Part shown: positions 58,055 to 64,000 of the stretch, in pieces | Position numbering within the stretch: position 1 is the first letter of the stretch | How the letters are laid out: every line of letters starts with the position of its first letter | NCBI GenBank assembly: GCA_029775925.1 | Contig: JARVKB010000009.1 | Coordinates: 11,283-75,282, forward strand | DNA from: Nitrososphaeria archaeon | GTDB taxonomy: Archaea; Thermoproteota; Nitrososphaeria; Nitrososphaerales; JACAEJ01 | Reading direction: 5' to 3' | Length of the DNA: 64,000 bases | Notes under the pieces: model-generated | The model's input: only the letters and a program-made list of their open reading frames with translations | The model's database searches: none | What the model was told of the DNA's origin: nothing | Position numbers and translations under genes: made by a program

Positions 58055-58093
58055 GAATAAAATTTAAATTAACGCAAAGCTTTTTTGATAAGG

Positions 58094-58930
58094 ATGAATA
58101 AACCTAAGAATTTAAAACTTAATGAAGATGAAGAGCTTTTAAAATCTTTAAGGCCACATCCTCTTGCCTTTTTAGACTTTTATGCAATATTTTTATATGT
58201 GATAATTATAAGCTCATTCTTCATTTTTTATAGAGAGGATATAATAGCATGGTTGGAGAATATCTACCTTCTAGGTCTATTAAAAGATCAAATTTTTATC
58301 TTGATTTGGAGTGCCTTGATCATAGTACCTTTTCTTGCGATTGCAATTTTAAAGATAACATGGAGATGGTTCTTTTTCGCTATAATCTTGGTCTTTACAG
58401 GAATAGCTTTAGTATTCTTATATAATTTACCATCATATTATATGCAAATGCCATCAATTGTTGCAAGTATTTTAGGATTGATCCTAACAGAATTTTATCG
58501 AAGAGGGCATGCATTCTACATTACAGATCAAAGAATAATATCTGAACTGAGATTTTTATCATATAAAAGGCGTGAGTTGACTTATGGCAAGATTAACGAT
58601 CTCGCCCTCACAAAAGGAGTTCTTGGTCGAATATTTAACTATGGAACTATATTTCCTATAACTGCATCAGGTTTTGGATTAGGGGAAGACTTAGCAGCTG
58701 CTACCGTTGGAGTGGGCGCTTCTTCAAAGAAAGGAGTTGGAGGAGGAATAGCAGTAAGTGGTGGAAGAACGGTATCTATCCCAAGAGGAAGGAGTTCTTA
58801 TGTTTTATTTGGGGTTAGTAATCCAGACGAGGTTTATTCATTAATTTCAAAGCATATCCATGGATATGAAGAAGCACCTTATTTGAAGAAGATTTTAGAA
58901 GAGTTAAAATCTCAAAAAGAGAAAGGTTAA
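58094..58930 (+). CDS. Membrane protein with a bacterial-type PH (bPH_2/YdbS-like) domain and a Gly-rich tail
   Basis: TM helices, then FYITDQRIISELRFLSYKRRELTYGKINDLALTKGVLGRIFNYGTI, then a GVGASSKKGVGGGIAVSGG tail. I preferred the ATG at 58094. Confidence 0.55.
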   Translation: MNKPKNLKLNEDEELLKSLRPHPLAFLDFYAIFLYVIIISSFFIFYREDIIAWLENIYLLGLLKDQIFILIWSALIIVPFLAIAILKITWRWFFFAIILVFTGIALVFLYNLPSYYMQMPSIVASILGLILTEFYRRGHAFYITDQRIISELRFLSYKRRELTYGKINDLALTKGVLGRIFNYGTIFPITASGFGLGEDLAAATVGVGASSKKGVGGGIAVSGGRTVSIPRGRSSYVLFGVSNPDEVYSLISKHIHGYEEAPYLKKILEELKSQKEKG

Positions 58931-59610
58931 GAGATCAAAGGATATATCTCATTTATTACATAATTTAAGAAGTCATCTTTCTCCACTCTACTGAATATTG
59001 TCACTACCCCATCCCTTGTTATCCCTACTATGAAGCCATACCTTTTTGGCTTTATCACTATATACCATACATTACCATGATTACAATAATCATTGTACAA
59101 TGTTGTATCTGCCAAGCTTGAACCATAAAGAGATAATTTTTTAACATTAGGAATATCAACATCGTTAAAGAATACTACTTTTGTATCCTCAAAGTTCTGC
59201 TCATGAAAATTTCTCATTTTTTCTGGAGCGATTCTCGCCTCTACTATATGCCCTGTAGTCAAGAACAATATTTTGCTCATCTGATTCGCAATGCTATTTG
59301 CTTGCATCTTTTTCTCCAATATAGTTAAAAATATTTTATCATTATAATTGGAGAAGATAAAAGGAGCTTCTATAGTTTTAACTGTTGGTACTTTTTCCCC
59401 TCTATGATATATCATAATGACTTGATCTTGTGAATATTTTCCTTCAAGAGCATTTATAACCATCTTCATATCACTTATCTCTGTTATCAGCTTCAATTCA
59501 CGATCATCGAACTTTTGAATTTCTTCAGTCTTAAAATCCTTGAGTTTTGATGCTATTGTGTCTATATCGATTTCTTCTTTAACAACGAAGACCTTCCCTG
59601 CAGTCACCAT
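58927..59610 (-). CDS. Hypothetical protein (227 aa), no recognisable motif
   Basis: Long ORF with coding-like composition. It is divergent from the MBL/SMC-like gene string. Confidence 0.4.
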   Translation of the reverse strand: MVTAGKVFVVKEEIDIDTIASKLKDFKTEEIQKFDDRELKLITEISDMKMVINALEGKYSQDQVIMIYHRGEKVPTVKTIEAPFIFSNYNDKIFLTILEKKMQANSIANQMSKILFLTTGHIVEARIAPEKMRNFHEQNFEDTKVVFFNDVDIPNVKKLSLYGSSLADTTLYNDYCNHGNVWYIVIKPKRYGFIVGITRDGVVTIFSRVEKDDFLNYVINEIYPLIS

Positions 59611-59671: not shown

Positions 59672-60286
59672 ATGATATTTGTCCAAATGCTTATCGGTGA
59701 AATGAAGAATTTTACATATTTGATAGGGGATGAAGATTCTGGTCTTGCTGCTGTCGTAGACCCAGCTGGCGATGTTGATAGAATATTGAAAGAAGCTAAA
59801 ATACGTAATCTAAAAATAGCATACATAATAAATACTCATGCTCACTTCGATCATGTAATGGTAAATGAAGGAATAGCATTAAGGACAAAGGCTAAGATAA
59901 TAATGCATGAAAAATCAAAAGCCATGAAGGATTTATCTGTAAGAGATGGTGATGTGATAGAGGTAGGAAAATTAAAGATCAAAGTCATTCACACACCTGG
60001 CCATTCTCCTGAGAGCATATGCCTTTTAATTGAAAAAAAGCTGTTAACTGGCGACACTCTTTTCGTAGGAAGCTGTGGCAGGACTGATTTACCAGGAGGT
60101 AATCCTGAAGAATTGTACCATAGTCTATTAAAATTGATGAATCTGGACGATAGTATCGAGATTTATCCTGGTCATGATTATGGGGAGAAGCCTTACTCAA
60201 TGATAGGTTATGAGAAAAGATACAATTATGCTTTGAATTTTAATACAAAAAAGGATTTTATTAGATTTATGAGAGGCTCTTTTTAA
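59672..60286 (+). CDS. MBL-fold metallo-hydrolase (glyoxalase II-like)
   Basis: NTHAHFDH (HxHxDH), HTPGHSP, TGDTLF and PGHDYG motifs. Confidence 0.85.
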   Translation: MIFVQMLIGEMKNFTYLIGDEDSGLAAVVDPAGDVDRILKEAKIRNLKIAYIINTHAHFDHVMVNEGIALRTKAKIIMHEKSKAMKDLSVRDGDVIEVGKLKIKVIHTPGHSPESICLLIEKKLLTGDTLFVGSCGRTDLPGGNPEELYHSLLKLMNLDDSIEIYPGHDYGEKPYSMIGYEKRYNYALNFNTKKDFIRFMRGSF

Positions 60287-60314: not shown

Positions 60315-62243
60315 TTGAGCATATTGTCAGGAAAGAAGTCAAAAGCGTCAGTAACTATAAACGAGATAATACTGGAAAATTTTATGTCTTACGAATATGC
60401 AAGAATTCCATTAAAGCCTGGGCTGAATATAATCTGTGGCCCGAATGGGGCAGGAAAATCCTCGATACTTATTGCTATATCCGTGGTTTTAGGTCAGACA
60501 TACACTGAAAGGAGCAGAAAGTTAAGTGATCTTATAAGGCATGGGAAAGAAATAGCAAGGGCAACTTTGATCTTTGACAATAAACCAAAGGATGGCAAGA
60601 AACCAATACCGTTCATAAAATCAGATACATTTATGCTCTCTCGATATTTGAGGAAGGATGGTTCCTATTGGTATGAGGCAGATTATCACGAGATAGATAA
60701 GAGCCAAGTTATAAGGCTGTTTAGAGAGTTTGGCATAAACCCTGATAACATGCTCATAATAATGCATCAGAACATGGTAGAAGAGTTCAGTATCATTTCA
60801 CCACAAGAAAAACTGAAGATGGTAGAAGAGGCAGTGGGCTTTCAAGATTACAGGAGAAAAATATTAGAGGCTGAAGATAAACTTTCAGGTTTGATAAGTG
60901 AAGAGGAATCAACACTAAAAGCTCTTGAGAGTGCTGAGCAAACTCTGAATTATTGGAAAGAAGTTTATGAGAAGAGCCTTATCAGAAAAGAGCTCATCAC
61001 GAAAAAAGGATTTTTAGAAAGAGAAGCCATATGGGCTCAGATAATAAAGCATGAGAGAATATTATCATCTCTAAAAGATAAGCTAAAGAATAAAGTGAAA
61101 ATTTTTGAGGATATTGAATCAAGAATAGAACAGACGAAAGAATTTATAAAAAAATCTTATGAAAAAATTACTCTTCAAAAGATGGAGCAAAGAAAGCTTT
61201 ACTATTCTTTGCTCGAGCTTGAGAAGGCTATAACAGAGATTCAAGTAACTGAGAGTTTGTTAAATCAATTAAATGTAGAGCCTACGGGAAGACTGGCAGA
61301 GAAAGTAAAGAGCTTCAATAATAGTAAGAGAGAGATCGAAGATAAAATTTCTAAGATTCAGATAGAGTTGAGCAATTTAGATAAAGAAATTAATTTAAGT
61401 CTAGAGAAGTATGTCAACCATAGGGTCAACGAAGCTTTATTGAACTTTAGAAAGAAGAACTTAGAAGATGAGATAGACGATATAAAAAGAGAGATAGAAG
61501 ATGAGGAGAAGAAATTCGATGAGTTAGCTCCTTTAATGGAGAAGGCTGGTAAGAGAATAGAGACTGAAAGAAATTTTATAGAGATAGATGCTGAAATCAA
61601 GATATTAGATGCTCAAATTCAATCCCTCGGAGCCATACCTGAAGAAGCGGAAGAGATGTATAAAGCCTATTTAAAGACCTTCAATGAATTAAAGGAAAGG
61701 GCAGGTATACTATCTGAAAACAGGAAAAGGGCTTCTTTAGAGCTGGATGAGAGGAAAGAAGTTTGGAGGAAAGTTTTACAAAAGCTCATAGATGAAGTAA
61801 ATCCTTCATATCAAAGCATATTATCAAAGATCAACGCTTCAGGTAGTGTAAGGCTTATCGATTTAGAAGATTTAGAGACAGCAGGCTTAGAACTTTTGGT
61901 GGGTTTCAGGGGAAGTATGCAATATGTTTTAGACGCTTACACTCAAAGTGGCGGTGAGAGAACAGTAGCCATAATGGCTTTTCTTTTATCTTTACAGCAG
62001 CATATCATGTCCCCTTTTAGGGCTGTAGATGAGTTTGATGTTCATATGGATCCGAGAAACCGTGAAGCCATATTCAAAGTCATAGCCTCAACTATTAAAG
62101 AGAGTAAAGATGTACAGTATCTTATGATTACACCTAGCCAGATCGCTATTACTGAGCATGATGCTCATGTGATATTGGTTCAAAATGTTCAAGGAAAGTC
62201 TGAAGTAAAGGTAGTGAGGGAGTTTGCAAAGGGTAAAGGTTAG
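60315..62243 (+). CDS. SMC-family ABC ATPase with short coiled coil; head motifs SMC5/6-like
   Basis: Walker A NIICGPNGAGKSS; Q-loop region IIMHQNMVEEF; a heptad-rich middle of about 320 aa; signature QSGGERT; Walker B/D-loop FRAVDEFDVHMD; LMITPSQ in place of the H-loop. TTG start. Confidence 0.7.
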   Translation: MSILSGKKSKASVTINEIILENFMSYEYARIPLKPGLNIICGPNGAGKSSILIAISVVLGQTYTERSRKLSDLIRHGKEIARATLIFDNKPKDGKKPIPFIKSDTFMLSRYLRKDGSYWYEADYHEIDKSQVIRLFREFGINPDNMLIIMHQNMVEEFSIISPQEKLKMVEEAVGFQDYRRKILEAEDKLSGLISEEESTLKALESAEQTLNYWKEVYEKSLIRKELITKKGFLEREAIWAQIIKHERILSSLKDKLKNKVKIFEDIESRIEQTKEFIKKSYEKITLQKMEQRKLYYSLLELEKAITEIQVTESLLNQLNVEPTGRLAEKVKSFNNSKREIEDKISKIQIELSNLDKEINLSLEKYVNHRVNEALLNFRKKNLEDEIDDIKREIEDEEKKFDELAPLMEKAGKRIETERNFIEIDAEIKILDAQIQSLGAIPEEAEEMYKAYLKTFNELKERAGILSENRKRASLELDERKEVWRKVLQKLIDEVNPSYQSILSKINASGSVRLIDLEDLETAGLELLVGFRGSMQYVLDAYTQSGGERTVAIMAFLLSLQQHIMSPFRAVDEFDVHMDPRNREAIFKVIASTIKESKDVQYLMITPSQIAITEHDAHVILVQNVQGKSEVKVVREFAKGKG

Positions 62244-63015
62244 CGTAGAAGATTTGATAAGGATCGTCGAGTTATGTAGAACTGTAGAAAGGGAAGGAAT
62301 CGACCCCTTTGAAGTTAATGTGAGGGCTTATCTTGAAAAGCTGAAAAAGTATCTTCCTCATTGGAAGCTATTGGATGAGTTGCTCTTAGATGTAGAGGCC
62401 ATTAATGCCATATCATCAATAATAAAGCTACAGAGTGATTGGATAAAGAGTCGCTCATCATCTCTCTATATAGATCCAATATTCGTTGAGCTGAAGATAA
62501 GGATGTTAGATCAAAAGATGATAGCTGAAGCCTTCCTCAATTCTTGGCACCCTATAGTTGCAATAGATCAAATCTTTTCTCAAAAACTAAAAGAAGCCAT
62601 AGATTATTGGAATAATCTTTTACCATTAAGTGAAAGATGGAGGGAAGACTTCAGTCCAAGTACTCCTATTGGAACTTTTGATATGGATGATCTGATCGAG
62701 CTTAAACTCATCTCCTTGAAAGATTTTGATGAAAAAATGAAGAGATTGCTAGAGGAATTAAGGAGCAAATTAAAAGATAATGATAAAATCGATTATTGGG
62801 ATTTTGTTTGTGCAGATACTTTTGAAGAGACTTTAGAAAGAGCATATATTACAAGCTTTATATTGACAGAGGGCTATGCAACTCTTTTGATAGATCCATT
62901 GGAAGAGAGAATATTTATAACTCTTATAAAAAAATCAAGGAAGAGCATACCATGCTCTTTACCTATAGCAATAGACTATGAGAATTGGAAGAATCTTAAG
63001 GAGAGAAAGAATTGA
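62224..63015 (+). CDS. Kleisin-like (ScpA/Nse4-like) protein
   Basis: N-terminal helical segment (VEDLIRIVELCRTVEREGIDPFEVNVRAYLEKLKKYL...AINAISSIIKLQSDWIK). C-terminal WH-like ERAYITSFILTEGYATLLIDPLEERIFITL. The layout and size match ScpA. It overlaps the SMC-like gene by 20 nt. Confidence 0.5.
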   Translation: MQRVKVSVEDLIRIVELCRTVEREGIDPFEVNVRAYLEKLKKYLPHWKLLDELLLDVEAINAISSIIKLQSDWIKSRSSSLYIDPIFVELKIRMLDQKMIAEAFLNSWHPIVAIDQIFSQKLKEAIDYWNNLLPLSERWREDFSPSTPIGTFDMDDLIELKLISLKDFDEKMKRLLEELRSKLKDNDKIDYWDFVCADTFEETLERAYITSFILTEGYATLLIDPLEERIFITLIKKSRKSIPCSLPIAIDYENWKNLKERKN

Positions 63016-63566
63016 GCGAAAAAGAAGCAGAGACGAGCATAAAGCTGAAGAGAGCTTCACAGCTACTATTCTTTCAAAGACATAAAAAGCTTGGGTTAAG
63101 GGGATGGGAATTAAAGAAAGTATTGGGCAAGGATTTCATGAGCATAATAGATCTATTGAACTCAGAGCTTGATAAATTGAACCTTCAAGTGAAGATTGTT
63201 TTTGAAGATTTTGAAGCAATCGATAAGCCTTCTGAAGAGCAGATCGATAGAGCAAGATTCTTCATAACGATAAAGAACCCTTTAGCAGTTAGCGATATAA
63301 TATCATCTGGGTGGAGAATAGATGATATAGCTGCTTTAGCAGCAGCTATAGCTTTGATAATATCAAGGCAAGGTAAAGCTCCAAAGAGAGATGTAGAACA
63401 GATCTTAAGAGAAAAATTCCCAAAATGGAGAGTTGATATGAACTTAGATAGATTCATCAAAAACGGCTATCTATCAAAGGATGATAAAGATATCCTTTAC
63501 ATAGGATGGAGAACTAGGGCTGAGATAGATCAAAAGATGCTCATGGACCTATTATTGGCAAAATAA
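63012..63566 (+). CDS. Tandem winged-helix (kite/ScpB-like) protein
   Basis: Two WH-like modules: ASQLLFFQRHKKLGLRGWELKKVLGKD...LQVKIV and IAALAAAIALIISRQGKAPKRDVEQIL...FIKNGYLSKDDKDILYIGWRT. A 4-nt TTGA overlap with the preceding gene. Confidence 0.45.
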   Translation: MSEKEAETSIKLKRASQLLFFQRHKKLGLRGWELKKVLGKDFMSIIDLLNSELDKLNLQVKIVFEDFEAIDKPSEEQIDRARFFITIKNPLAVSDIISSGWRIDDIAALAAAIALIISRQGKAPKRDVEQILREKFPKWRVDMNLDRFIKNGYLSKDDKDILYIGWRTRAEIDQKMLMDLLLAK

Positions 63567-63570
63567 CTAA

Positions 63571-63915
63571 TTAAGTGTACAATCTCCAAGTATGATTGCA
63601 TTTTTCATTAGTGCATCTATAAAATTGGGTAGGAGGTTCATCCCCACTTCTGGTCTGTAATAACCACCAATAAGCTGTTGTATTACCACATTTTGGACAT
63701 TCTACAGTAGCAATAGGTAGCGTCTTTATCTCTTTTGATTCATCCCCAAAAATTTTTATATAGTTGGATGGCGATCTCTCAGACTTACCTGTAACCTTCT
63801 CTATCTTTATGTAAAAACCACAGTTATCACATGCTAAACCTTGAAAAGAACTACCTTCTGTCTTTATCTGCTTAAACTTTAGTCTTGTCCCACATTTTTC
63901 ACAGAACTCCATTTT
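63571..63915 (-). CDS. tfs: Transcription factor S (TFS/RpoM family)
   Basis: N-terminal zinc ribbon MEFCEKCG...CDNCG. C-terminal TFIIS-type ribbon CPKCGNTTAYWWLLQTRSGDEPPTQFYRCTNEKCNHTW with the acidic DE loop. I preferred the ATG at 63915. Confidence 0.8.
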   Translation of the reverse strand, partial: KMEFCEKCGTRLKFKQIKTEGSSFQGLACDNCGFYIKIEKVTGKSERSPSNYIKIFGDESKEIKTLPIATVECPKCGNTTAYWWLLQTRSGDEPPTQFYRCTNEKCNHTWRLYT

Positions 63916-64000
63916 ATTCTCACCTTTTAGCAAAAGCACTCTTTAATTTTGAAAGTAAGTTAGATGTATTCTCAATAGCTTTTGAGCAACTAGAGATCAG

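What the first reader, a model, noticed from the sequence alone, without database searches (positions are those of the whole stretch)
60800..61800. SMC-like arms are very short, with no hinge domain and no zinc hook
Only about 320 residues of K/E/L-rich heptad sequence lie between the two head halves (roughly EEAVGFQDYRRKILEAEDKL to VWRKVLQKLIDEVNPS). That allows about 140 residues per antiparallel arm, against roughly 350 in canonical SMC.

The apex (around LNQLNVEPTGRLAEKVKSFNNSK) has no globular, Gly-rich hinge. There is also no CxxC zinc hook: the only Cys in the protein is in Walker A.

Dimerisation, if it occurs, must therefore use a different apex or only the heads plus kleisin. The architecture is closer to Lamassu LmuB or RecN-type mini-SMCs, while the head motifs are SMC5/6-like.
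Basis: seen in the sequence. Interest (0 to 1): 0.6.

Follow-up and report, generated by a model that had tools for sequence, protein, structure and literature searches.

The report
Hingeless mini-SMC of archaeal SMC5/6-like complex
This archaeal gene encodes a chromosome-maintenance ATPase related to eukaryotic SMC5/6 that, like its relatives in hundreds of archaeal species, has lost the hinge that normally joins two SMC arms, so it offers a natural test of whether that hinge is needed.

Summary
The 642-aa ORF (60315-62243, +) has complete SMC head halves separated by about 320 residues. AlphaFold2 folds these into a plain antiparallel coiled-coil hairpin: N-arm helix 177-318, 7-residue loop 319-325, C-arm 326-504 with a conserved joint-like break. 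There is no hinge and no CxxC; the only Cys is C41.

It is not a truncated gene. At least 589 archaeal species genomes encode the same short form, with 247-380 residues between the head halves. It is usually followed by an Nse4-like kleisin and an Nse1/3-like kite, as here (62224-63015, 63012-63566).

The heads match SMC5 best. This fits the published "SMC5/6-related archaeal SMC" operon, whose papers do not mention the missing hinge. The resemblance to LmuB or RecN is only in overall shape.

Relatives give the direction of change. A sister group (963-985 aa) and Asgard forms (823-841 aa) keep a hinge. A Bathyarchaeia subclade nested inside the short family has doubled arms and a Rad50-like CxxC hook.

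The tip is the least conserved part and the only indel site. I therefore infer dimerisation through ATP-engaged heads plus kleisin and kite, working as a DNA clamp. This is untested.

The parts
60315..62243 (+). Hingeless mini-SMC ATPase (642 aa) of the archaeal SMC5/6-related type
   Evidence: ORF. Pfam SMC_N 2.6e-35. Best solved-structure sequence matches are yeast Smc5 (1.5e-30), then Pyrococcus Smc heads and Smc6. The closest database sequence is 100% identical over 639 aa, and the next is 91% identical at the same 642 aa.
60315..60842 (+). N-terminal head half (residues 1-176), with Walker A GPNGAGKS at 60438-60461 and the Q-loop MHQN at 60762-60773
   Evidence: Translation. These columns are invariant in the family: G42 P43 N44 G45 G47 K48 S49, H151 Q152. 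AF2 pLDDT is 80-93.
60843..61268 (+). N-terminal arm strand: one continuous helix, residues 177-318 (142 aa, about 21 nm)
   Evidence: AF2/DSSP helix H177-318. Heptad period 3.5.
61269..61289 (+). Apex: a 7-residue hairpin loop LNVEPTG (residues 319-325), with no hinge and no CxxC
   Evidence: AF2 loop with pLDDT 59-66 in the 311-330 blocks. This is the least conserved part of the protein and the only large indel site, with up to 42 alignment columns inserted after residue 323.
61290..61826 (+). C-terminal arm strand (residues 326-504): distal helix 326-403, joint-like break, neck helix 445-504
   Evidence: AF2 helices 326-403, 405-411, 421-437 and 445-504.
61524..61646 (+). Joint-like discontinuity in the C-arm (residues 404-444), a conserved island within the arm
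   Evidence: AF2 breaks at 412-420 and 438-444. R414, T417, R419 and E423 are nearly invariant. Conservation is 0.58 against 0.46 for the distal arm. The best Foldseek match is 5xei, a Pyrococcus Smc head with coiled coil and joint.
61827..62243 (+). C-terminal head half (residues 505-642): signature TQSGGER at 61941-61961, Walker B/D-loop FRAVDEFDVHMD at 62016-62051, and MITPSQ at 62124-62141 in place of an H-loop His
   Evidence: Translation. Residue-by-residue alignment to human and yeast SMC5.
62224..63015 (+). Nse4-like kleisin (263 aa); its start overlaps the SMC stop by 20 nt
   Evidence: Pfam Nse4_C E=0.0067 for this protein, and hits in 11 of 14 aligned orthologues (best 5.7e-6). The orthologue profile matches human EID3/NSE4B (1.5e-4) and yeast Nse4 (3.9e-4) as the best solved structures. 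Found next to the SMC gene in 58 of 80 loci.
63012..63566 (+). Nse1/3-like kite candidate (184 aa); its start overlaps the kleisin stop (TTGA)
   Evidence: Found in the same order in 55 of 80 loci. Pfam MAGE (the Nse3 domain) hits 3 of 14 orthologues (best 3.6e-4) and SMC_Nse1 hits 2 of 14 (0.039). No solved-structure sequence match. The fold was not modelled.

Best explanation
What it is (shown): the ATPase subunit of the archaeal SMC5/6-related complex, encoded in an operon with an Nse4-like kleisin and an Nse1/3-like kite. It is the lineage-wide 'mini' form. In order it has a head, a roughly 60-residue neck, a joint-like break, a roughly 78-residue distal coiled coil and a 7-residue hairpin.

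How it arose (inferred from a rough tree): hinge-bearing relatives branch next to or outside the short clade. The hinge and distal arms were therefore lost in the ancestor of this clade.

How it works (inferred, not shown):
1. Two subunits pair through ATP-sandwiched heads.
2. Between ATP cycles they stay together through the kleisin and a kite dimer. The kleisin N-terminus would bind the neck of one subunit, and its C-terminal winged helix would bind the cap of the other.
3. The two roughly 21-nm arms end freely.
4. The complex acts as an ATP-gated DNA clamp. DNA lies on the engaged heads and inside the kleisin compartment, as in the head module of eukaryotic Smc5/6.
5. It is not a hinge-closed ring that can hold DNA between its arms, so long-range loop extrusion of the canonical kind is unlikely.
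For: Identity:
- SMC_N and SMC models match.
- The heads are closest to SMC5/6 by sequence and by fold.
- In a head-only NJ tree the family groups with the SMC5/6-like proteins and away from canonical SMC in 88 of 100 bootstraps.
- The kleisin matches Nse4 and the kite matches MAGE/Nse1.
- The genes overlap and the synteny is conserved.
- Yoshinaga & Inagaki 2021 (PMC8665677) describe SMC5/6-related archaeal SMC, and van Hooff et al. (bioRxiv 10.1101/2024.01.07.573240) describe its operon with a kleisin and a kite.

Hinge loss:
- The P0175 group has a hinge. Its middle region matches the Pfam-defined hinge of P0214 at 4e-10, and PF06470 is precomputed for four of its members.
- That group has the same kleisin and kite operon.
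- It groups with the short family in 92 of 100 bootstraps.
- The Asgard relatives all carry PF06470.

Free tips:
- Identity to the window protein falls steadily from head (0.72) to neck (0.52), joint (0.46), distal arm (0.33) and tip (0.13).
- The tip is the only indel site, and the length between the head halves ranges over 247-380 residues.
- There is no metal ligand, and no extra hydrophobic stripe on the arms or tip.
- AF2 gives a bare hairpin.
- In the nested CxxC subclade, by contrast, the hook is an invariant island within variable arms, and in the one locus examined its gene is no longer next to a kleisin and kite.
Against: - Dimerisation was not tested; only monomers could be modelled.
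- As far as I know, every characterised SMC-kleisin complex dimerises at its apex.
- Coiled-coil tips can pair through poorly conserved contacts; from memory, RecN is an example. SMC arms can also zip along polar surfaces.
- Engineered Bacillus mini-Smc proteins with short arms hydrolyse ATP and reach their loading sites but fail to relocate (PMC5344682). A short natural form may therefore work quite differently from what I propose.
- The direction of hinge loss rests on a rough NJ tree. P0175 falls outside the short clade in only 63 of 100 bootstraps.
- The kite assignment rests on weak Pfam hits and on synteny.
Confidence: 0.5

Rival explanations
1. The short arms do dimerise, either tip to tip as a small helical bundle (as recalled for RecN) or by zipping along their length. 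The complex would then still be a closed but small SMC-kleisin ring or rod of about 2 x 21 nm that traps DNA topologically.
For: Apex dimerisation is the rule for SMC, MukB, Rad50 and RecN (my own knowledge). The distal arm carries conserved one-sided patches that could be arm-to-arm contacts: Y[YF]SLLxLEKE at residues 296-305 and ExYxxxRVxEAxLxFR at 365-379. A monomer AF2 model cannot exclude this.
Against: The tip is the least conserved and most length-variable part. Hydrophobic positions make up only about 2 in 7 on the arms and 0.18 at the tip, so no extra stripe suggests a four-helix packing. A nested subclade gained a dedicated CxxC hook, which would be less expected if the tips already paired.
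Confidence: 0.3
2. It is a defence-type or repair-type mini-SMC, such as Lamassu LmuB, RecN or Rad50, rather than a chromosomal SMC-kleisin subunit.
For: Similar size and short coiled coil. Weak PADLOC matches to LmuB (6e-15, 53 bits), mad3 and AriA.
Against: Those matches reflect generic ABC-ATPase similarity and are weaker than the SMC matches. The kleisin and kite have no PADLOC match. No nuclease or other effector was recognised next to the gene. The operon is conserved across TACK archaea and related groups in at least 589 species, which fits a housekeeping gene. RecN scores 22.9 bits against a cut-off of 408, and there is no CxxC.
Confidence: 0.04
3. The ORF is a truncated, internally deleted or misassembled copy of a full-length hinge-bearing SMC gene.
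For: Longer hinge-bearing and hook-bearing relatives exist.
Against: The same architecture is seen in all 120 best hits, 119 of them full-length at 587-695 aa, and in at least 589 species genomes. The motifs are intact and the fold is confident. A homologue 91% identical has the same length.
Confidence: 0.01
4. The mini-SMC does not form homodimers. Instead it pairs with another SMC-family protein encoded elsewhere, for example the canonical SMC that many of these archaea also carry, or it works as a single SMC closed by its own kleisin.
For: Yoshinaga & Inagaki report that 44 of 80 species with this type also have a canonical SMC (PMC8665677). In Methanosarcinales and ANME-1 the gene lacks an adjacent kleisin and kite.
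Against: No evidence for a heterodimer was found. Many species carry only one of the two SMC types (PMC8665677). The ATP-sandwich motifs are complete, as expected for a symmetric homodimer.
Confidence: 0.05

Closest known systems
Archaeal 'SMC5/6-related aSMC' with Nse4-like kleisin and Nse1/3-like kite (Yoshinaga & Inagaki 2021, PMC8665677; van Hooff et al., bioRxiv 10.1101/2024.01.07.573240)
   Same: Same taxa: Thaumarchaeota/Nitrososphaerales, Bathyarchaeota, Verstraetearchaeota/Methanomethylicia, and some Euryarchaeota. Heads have SMC5/6 affinity, and the operon holds all three subunits. I file the window gene here.
   Different: Nothing differs in kind. The papers analyse head phylogeny; van Hooff et al. 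removed the coiled coils by hand from their eukaryotic SMC alignments. Searches of their text and held supplements for 'hinge', 'short' and 'shorter' gave only generic statements. The missing hinge and the 21-nm arms appear not to have been described.
Eukaryotic Smc5/Smc6 (for example PDB 7QCD, 7TVE, 9LWI)
   Same: These are the closest solved heads by sequence, and Smc5/6 chains rank just behind one archaeal Smc head by fold. They share QSGGER, PFRxVDE..MD and ITP(K/S) in place of an H-loop His. The partners are of the Nse4 kleisin and Nse1/Nse3 kite type.
   Different: Smc5 and Smc6 form a heterodimer joined by a hinge, with 714-766 residues between the head halves against 320 here. From my own knowledge, the eukaryotic complex also has Nse2 and Nse5/6. 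None of these was found here.
Canonical Smc-ScpAB
   Same: An SMC head, neck and joint with a kleisin and a kite dimer. The best Foldseek match is the Pyrococcus Smc head-joint fragment 5xei.
   Different: Canonical Smc has a hinge (PF06470) and about 350-residue arms (819-865 residues between the head halves). The window protein scores 162 bits against a cut-off of 729 for TIGR02169. It ends about 78 residues beyond the joint.
Rad50 and ASRP/ClsN (zinc-hook SMC-like proteins; PMC9389158)
   Same: ABC-type heads on an antiparallel coiled coil with no globular hinge. A Bathyarchaeia subclade nested in this family carries a CxxCG hook like theirs.
   Different: The window protein has no CxxC and no Mre11-type nuclease was recognised among its neighbours. 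It scores 41 bits against a cut-off of 300 for ASRP, and no more than 55 bits for the Rad50 models.
RecN and Lamassu LmuB
   Same: Similar overall size, with short arms and no SMC hinge.
   Different: The match is only at the level of generic ATPase similarity (RecN 23 bits; LmuB 53 bits). From my own knowledge, RecN is bacterial and has no kleisin or kite, and LmuB works with LmuA and LmuC effectors. No effector-like gene was recognised next to this gene.
Engineered B. subtilis Mini-Smc and Smc(Zh) hook chimera (Burmann et al. 2017, PMC5344682), and 'hinge-less' SMC variants of marine Actinobacteria (PMC12153180)
   Same: Both show that SMC arms can be shortened or the hinge replaced. The Bathyarchaeia CxxC forms are a natural counterpart of the Smc(Zh) chimera. 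The actinobacterial report is a precedent for natural hinge loss.
   Different: The Mini-Smc constructs kept a hinge or hook. The actinobacterial variants belong to the canonical bacterial SMC branch. Neither is the SMC5/6-related archaeal clade.

Membership tests
SMC superfamily (Pfam SMC_N type split ABC ATPase) | Walker A at the N-terminus; signature motif, Walker B and D-loop at the C-terminus; the two separated by an antiparallel coiled coil | tested here: met
   GPNGAGKS 42-49, TQSGGER 543-549, FRAVDEFDVHMD 568-579. SMC_N 2.6e-35 spanning residues 15-627. AF2 coiled-coil hairpin.
Canonical SMC (Smc-ScpAB; TIGR02169/TIGR02168) | Globular hinge dimerisation domain (PF06470) at the apex | tested here: not met
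   No PF06470 hit. AF2 gives a 7-residue loop. Only 6 Gly in 320 arm residues.
Canonical SMC (Smc-ScpAB; TIGR02169/TIGR02168) | Arms of about 350 residues and a score above the curated family cut-off | tested here: not met
   320 residues between the head halves, against 819-865 in canonical SMC. 162 bits against a cut-off of 729, and 124 against 567.
Archaeal SMC5/6-related SMC complex | Heads closer to SMC5/6 than to canonical SMC | tested here: met
   The best solved-structure sequence matches are Smc5. The NJ head tree excludes canonical SMC in 88 of 100 bootstraps; this is a rough method.
Archaeal SMC5/6-related SMC complex | Operon with an Nse4-type kleisin | tested here: met
   Overlapping downstream ORF. 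Nse4_C in 11 of 14 orthologues. The orthologue profile's best solved-structure matches are EID3/NSE4B and Nse4.
Archaeal SMC5/6-related SMC complex | Nse1/3-type kite (tandem winged helix) | tested here: inconclusive
   Conserved third gene. Weak MAGE hits (3 of 14, best 3.6e-4) and SMC_Nse1 hits (2 of 14). No solved-structure sequence match. The fold was not modelled.
Eukaryotic SMC5/6 | Smc5-Smc6 heterodimer joined by hinges | tested here: not met
   A single SMC gene in the operon, with no hinge.
Rad50 / ASRP (ClsN, Sph) | CxxC zinc hook at the coiled-coil apex | tested here: not met
   The only Cys is C41. ASRP scores 41 bits against a cut-off of 300.
RecN | Score above the family cut-off | tested here: not met
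   TIGR00634 scores 22.9 bits against a cut-off of 408.
Lamassu LmuB | LmuB family match, with LmuA effector and LmuC partner genes | tested here: not met
   LmuB models score 53 bits or less. The two downstream proteins have no PADLOC match and are Nse4-like and kite-like.
Any SMC-kleisin complex | Two SMC subunits bridged asymmetrically by one kleisin (neck and cap contacts) | not testable with these tools
   This needs multimer modelling or biochemistry. Only single-chain prediction was available.

The most novel reading that the evidence does not exclude
A true SMC-kleisin-kite complex, the closest prokaryotic relative of eukaryotic SMC5/6, works in hundreds of archaeal species with no apex dimerisation at all: open arms of about 21 nm. 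The hinge would then be dispensable for the core SMC/kleisin activity. Within this hingeless clade one Bathyarchaeia lineage later doubled its arms and gained a Rad50/ASRP-like zinc hook. That is a natural version of the engineered hinge-to-hook swap.
Probability: 0.4. Interest if true: 0.75.

Novelty: new variant of a known kind. Interest (0 to 1): 0.6.

Why it matters
Current models of SMC action treat hinge-mediated dimerisation and long arms as essential. These include topological entrapment between the arms, DNA segment capture and loop extrusion.

Here a whole clade of genuine SMC-kleisin-kite complexes, on the branch that leads to eukaryotic SMC5/6, has dispensed with the hinge and with more than half of each arm. 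If the arms really end freely, the conserved core activity must lie in the heads, neck, joint, kleisin and kites acting as an ATP-gated DNA clamp.

The small size, about 640 + 260 + 185 residues, makes the complex a convenient minimal system for structural and single-molecule work.

Three apex designs occur on near-identical heads: hinge, bare hairpin and zinc hook. This is a natural experiment on what the apex is for. It also bears on what the SMC5/6 ancestor looked like, since the Asgard relatives keep a hinge.

Tried and rejected
- **Truncated gene or artefact:** rejected on the family-wide length distribution.
- **Defence system (Lamassu, Septu, Gabija and similar):** the PADLOC scan gave only generic ATPase hits and nothing for the partner proteins.
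- **Hidden apex domain:** no Pfam or NCBIfam hit and none in the AF2 model.
- **Extra hydrophobic stripe on the arms or tip,** which would suggest four-helix packing: not found. This is weak negative evidence.
- **Preferred or periodic arm lengths:** the histogram is broad and affected by uneven sampling, so I drew no conclusion.
- **Kite fold:** The kite assignment therefore stays weak.
- **Taxon names for the hinge-bearing P0175 group and for P0202, P0207 and P0210:** none on record.
- **Literature:** searches for a prior description of the missing hinge in this archaeal clade found none. Subscription journals are not covered. One search used a phrase the search could not match, and searches were rejected as malformed queries.
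- **Canonical SMC in the same genome:** not testable.
- **ASRP or Rad50 origin of the arm-plus-hook insert in the CxxC forms:** hinted at by a 63-bit match of P0138 residues 344-693 to the middle of the ASRP model. Coiled-coil matches are unreliable, so I make no claim.
Full report
**1. The observation**

The finding's coordinates, 60800-61800, fall inside a 642-aa ORF at 60315-62243 (+) and cover residues 162-496.

Between the two head halves lie 320 residues (176-495). They are rich in E, K, L and I (16.9, 13.4, 12.2 and 10.0%) and contain only 6 Gly and 3 Pro. The protein's single Cys is C41, beside Walker A. Across 73 aligned homologues the arms show a 3.5-residue hydrophobic period, and 26-33% of positions are hydrophobic. 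That is the roughly 2-in-7 pattern of a two-stranded coiled coil.

AlphaFold2 with that alignment (mean pLDDT 84.5) gives:
- one unbroken N-arm helix, 177-318 (142 residues, about 21 nm);
- a 7-residue loop, 319-325 (LNVEPTG);
- a C-arm made of helices 326-403, 405-411, 421-437 and 445-504.

Nothing globular sits at the apex. Pfam and NCBIfam find no hinge or hook.

**2. What it is**

The head motifs are complete:
- Walker A, GPNGAGKS;
- Q-loop, MHQN;
- signature motif, TQSGGER;
- Walker B and D-loop, FRAVDEFDVHMD.

The best sequence matches among solved structures are yeast Smc5 (1.5e-30), followed by Pyrococcus Smc heads and Smc6. The C-terminal head alone matches human SMC5 best (9.8e-20). 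It shares QSGGER, PFRxVDE..MD and QY..ITP(S/K) with SMC5; I recall from memory that canonical SMC has ITH at that last position. Foldseek ranks the Pyrococcus Smc head-plus-joint fragment 5xei first, with Smc6 and Smc5 next.

Two overlapping ORFs follow the gene.
- **62224-63015 (263 aa).** It matches Pfam Nse4_C weakly (0.0067), but 11 of 14 aligned orthologues hit that model (best 5.7e-6). A profile of the orthologues finds human EID3/NSE4B (1.5e-4) and yeast Nse4 (3.9e-4) as its best solved relatives. It is an Nse4-like kleisin.
- **63012-63566 (184 aa).** It has only weak family support: MAGE, the Nse3 domain, in 3 of 14 orthologues (best 3.6e-4), and SMC_Nse1 in 2 of 14. It is conserved in the same position and so is a kite candidate.

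The overlaps are 20 nt and TTGA, which indicates one operon. A TFS-type zinc-ribbon gene next door and the names attached to homologues place the window in a Nitrososphaerales archaeon.

This matches the 'SMC5/6-related archaeal SMC' of Yoshinaga & Inagaki 2021 (PMC8665677). [quoted passage not shown] Those papers analyse head phylogenies. My searches of their text and held supplements for 'hinge', 'short' and 'shorter' returned only generic statements.

**3. Not a truncated gene, but a derived architecture**

All 120 best database hits are 587-695 aa, apart from one 415-aa partial sequence. A scan of one genome per species found at least 589 loci. The 80 loci kept come from Nitrososphaerales, Bathyarchaeia, Methanomethylicia, Hadarchaeales, Hydrothermarchaeota, Methanosarcinales/ANME-1 and others. 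In 257 short members the length between the head halves is 247-380 residues; the window's is 320.

The exhaustive representative search also turned up longer relatives.
- **(a) A small hinge-bearing group, P0175 and relatives (963-985 aa).** Its middle region matches the Pfam-defined hinge of P0214 at 4e-10, and PF06470 is precomputed for four members. Its gene is followed by homologues of the window's kleisin (5e-13) and kite (6e-20).
- **(b) Asgard forms from Freyarchaeia and Jordarchaeia (823-841 aa).** All carry the SMC hinge.
- **(c) Bathyarchaeota proteins of 1016-1071 aa.** Their heads are as similar to the window's as those of short relatives, and they have an invariant C[DE][KR]CGSxLxxxxW motif at the arm midpoint.

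I built an NJ tree of the head domains only (290 columns, 100 bootstraps). It is rough.

| Grouping | Bootstraps (of 100) |
|---|---|
| Family plus SMC5/6-like proteins (unnamed, presumed eukaryotic), excluding canonical SMC | 88 |
| Short family with P0175 | 92 |
| P0175 outside the short clade | 63 |
| CxxC group monophyletic | 100 |
| CxxC group nested within short Bathyarchaeia sequences | 99 |

Taking canonical SMC, eukaryotic SMC5/6, the Asgard forms and P0175 as hinge-bearing, the simplest reading has two steps. The hinge and distal arms were lost at the base of the short clade. One subclade later re-elongated its arms and gained a hook.

AF2 of the CxxC form P0379 (mean pLDDT 73, lower confidence) places the CxxC in the loop between helices 496-542 and 562-656. 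It also shows arm breaks at 324-366 and 687-701, which on my reading of the model is about where the short proteins turn.

**4. How the arm is built, and what that says about the apex**

Pairing the helices gives three parts.
- **Neck:** N-strand 177-237 with C-strand 445-504, about 9 nm.
- **Joint-like break:** a 41-residue detour in the C-strand, 404-444. It is a conserved island, with R414, T417, R419 and E423 nearly invariant.
- **Distal coiled coil:** N-strand 241-318 with C-strand 326-403, about 11.5 nm.

The protein therefore stops roughly 78 residues beyond the joint.

Identity to the window protein falls steadily towards the tip:

| Region | Close subclade | Rest of family |
|---|---|---|
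| N-terminal head half | 0.90 | 0.72 |
| Neck (N-strand) | 0.78 | 0.52 |
| Joint | 0.75 | 0.46 |
| Distal arm | 0.69 | 0.33 |
| Tip | 0.61 | 0.13 |

The only large indel block in the family alignment sits after residue 323.

This is the opposite of what I expect, from my own knowledge, in hinge- or hook-bearing relatives, where the apex is a conserved island. The CxxC subclade shows exactly such an island. The window's tip has no metal ligands and no excess of hydrophobic positions (0.18).

**5. Most likely mechanism (inferred)**

I commit to an open-armed, head-module SMC.
1. Two subunits engage through ATP.
2. They remain tethered by the kleisin (neck of one subunit, cap of the other) and a kite dimer.
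3. DNA is clamped on the engaged heads and within the kleisin compartment, as in the DNA-bound Smc5/6 core structure (7TVE).
4. The short arms act as a gate or lever, not as the wall of a hinge-closed ring.

The steps that are shown are the identity of the three subunits (the kite only weakly), the arm anatomy, the absence of an apex domain, and the variability of the tip. The steps that are inferred are the stoichiometry, the kleisin bridging, the free tips and the clamp function.

I put about 0.9 on the identity and about 0.45-0.5 on the mechanism.

The main rival (0.3) is that the arms pair anyway, tip to tip or by zipping, giving a small closed ring. Monomer modelling cannot exclude this, and the conserved one-sided arm motifs at 296-305 and 365-379 could be such contacts or partner sites.

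Three other readings fare worse:
- A defence-type or RecN-type protein is disfavoured by the weak scores, the Nse4-like and kite-like partners, and the wide conservation of the operon across archaeal lineages.
- A truncation artefact is refuted by the family-wide length distribution.
- A heterodimer with another SMC has no support.

**6. Comparison with known systems, and novelty**

The window gene is a member of the already described archaeal SMC5/6-related complex. What appears not to have been described is its architecture. Natural 'hinge-less' SMC variants were reported in 2025 for marine Actinobacteria, a different branch (PMC12153180). Burmann et al. 2017 showed that a hinge-to-Rad50-hook chimera of B. 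subtilis Smc can function, while mini-Smc proteins reach loading sites but fail to relocate (PMC5344682). ASRP/ClsN and Rad50 are the known zinc-hook families (PMC9389158).

I rate the finding a new variant of a known kind, with interest 0.6. A specialist would be surprised that the closest prokaryotic relatives of SMC5/6 lack the hinge. The occurrence of three apex designs on near-identical heads makes the role of the apex directly testable.

One caveat applies: subscription literature was not searchable, so I cannot exclude an earlier description.

Noticed in passing
not in the window; proteins P0127, P0132, P0138, P0374, P0379; locus L082 2105-5248: A Bathyarchaeota subclade nested inside the hingeless family (99 of 100 bootstraps) has proteins of 1016-1071 aa with doubled arms. 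An invariant C[DE][KR]CGSxLxxxxW motif sits at the arm midpoint, which AF2 places in the apex loop. This is a Rad50/ASRP-like zinc hook on SMC5/6-like heads. In L082 the gene is not followed by a kleisin and kite.
   Followed up: partly
locus L081 4014-8261: A hinge-bearing sister group (P0175 and about 10 clusters, 963-985 aa) keeps the same SMC-kleisin-kite operon. Its taxon is unknown, because no source gives a name.
   Followed up: partly
loci L012, L016-L019, L021-L023, L025, L028, L030, L033, L035, L037, L040, L051 and others: In Methanosarcinales, ANME-1/Methanophagales and Halobacteriota the short SMC gene has no kleisin or kite next to it. In L016 unrelated ORFs flank it. The partners may be encoded elsewhere or may be absent.
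   Followed up: partly
loci L036 and L043 (both from MAG DASPPO01, Nitrososphaerales SMAG_U12175): Two separate contigs of one metagenome-assembled genome each carry a full SMC-kleisin-kite operon (48% and 46% identity to the window SMC). This is either a duplicated operon or a mixed bin.
   Followed up: no
proteins P0207, P0210 (628-633 aa): These hingeless proteins group with the Asgard hinge-bearing P0214 rather than with the main short family (69 of 100 bootstraps). This may be a second, independent hinge loss.
   Followed up: no
window 61200-61229 (residues 296-305) and 61407-61451 (residues 365-379): These are conserved arm motifs: Y[YF]SLLxLEKE on the N-strand and ExYxxxRVxEAxLxFR on the C-strand. 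By my helix pairing the C-strand motif lies opposite the poorly conserved N-strand residues 265-279. They could be binding sites for a partner or arm-to-arm contacts.
   Followed up: no
window 63571-63939 (-): A TFS/RPB9-type double zinc-ribbon gene (Zn_ribbon_TFIIS, 1.9e-18) lies directly downstream on the opposite strand. It marks the window as archaeal.
   Followed up: no
window 58927-59610 (-): Upstream of the operon lies a 227-aa ORF with no family match. Its other upstream neighbours are a bPH_2-domain ORF (58085-58930, +) and a metallo-beta-lactamase-fold ORF (59672-60286, +). I did not check whether any of these is linked to the operon in other genomes.
   Followed up: no
protein P0138 residues 344-693: The arm-plus-hook middle of a CxxC form matches the middle of the NCBIfam ASRP model (63 bits, cut-off 300) and a Rad50 model. 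This hints that the inserted module came from an ASRP/Rad50-like gene. Coiled-coil matches are unreliable.
   Followed up: no
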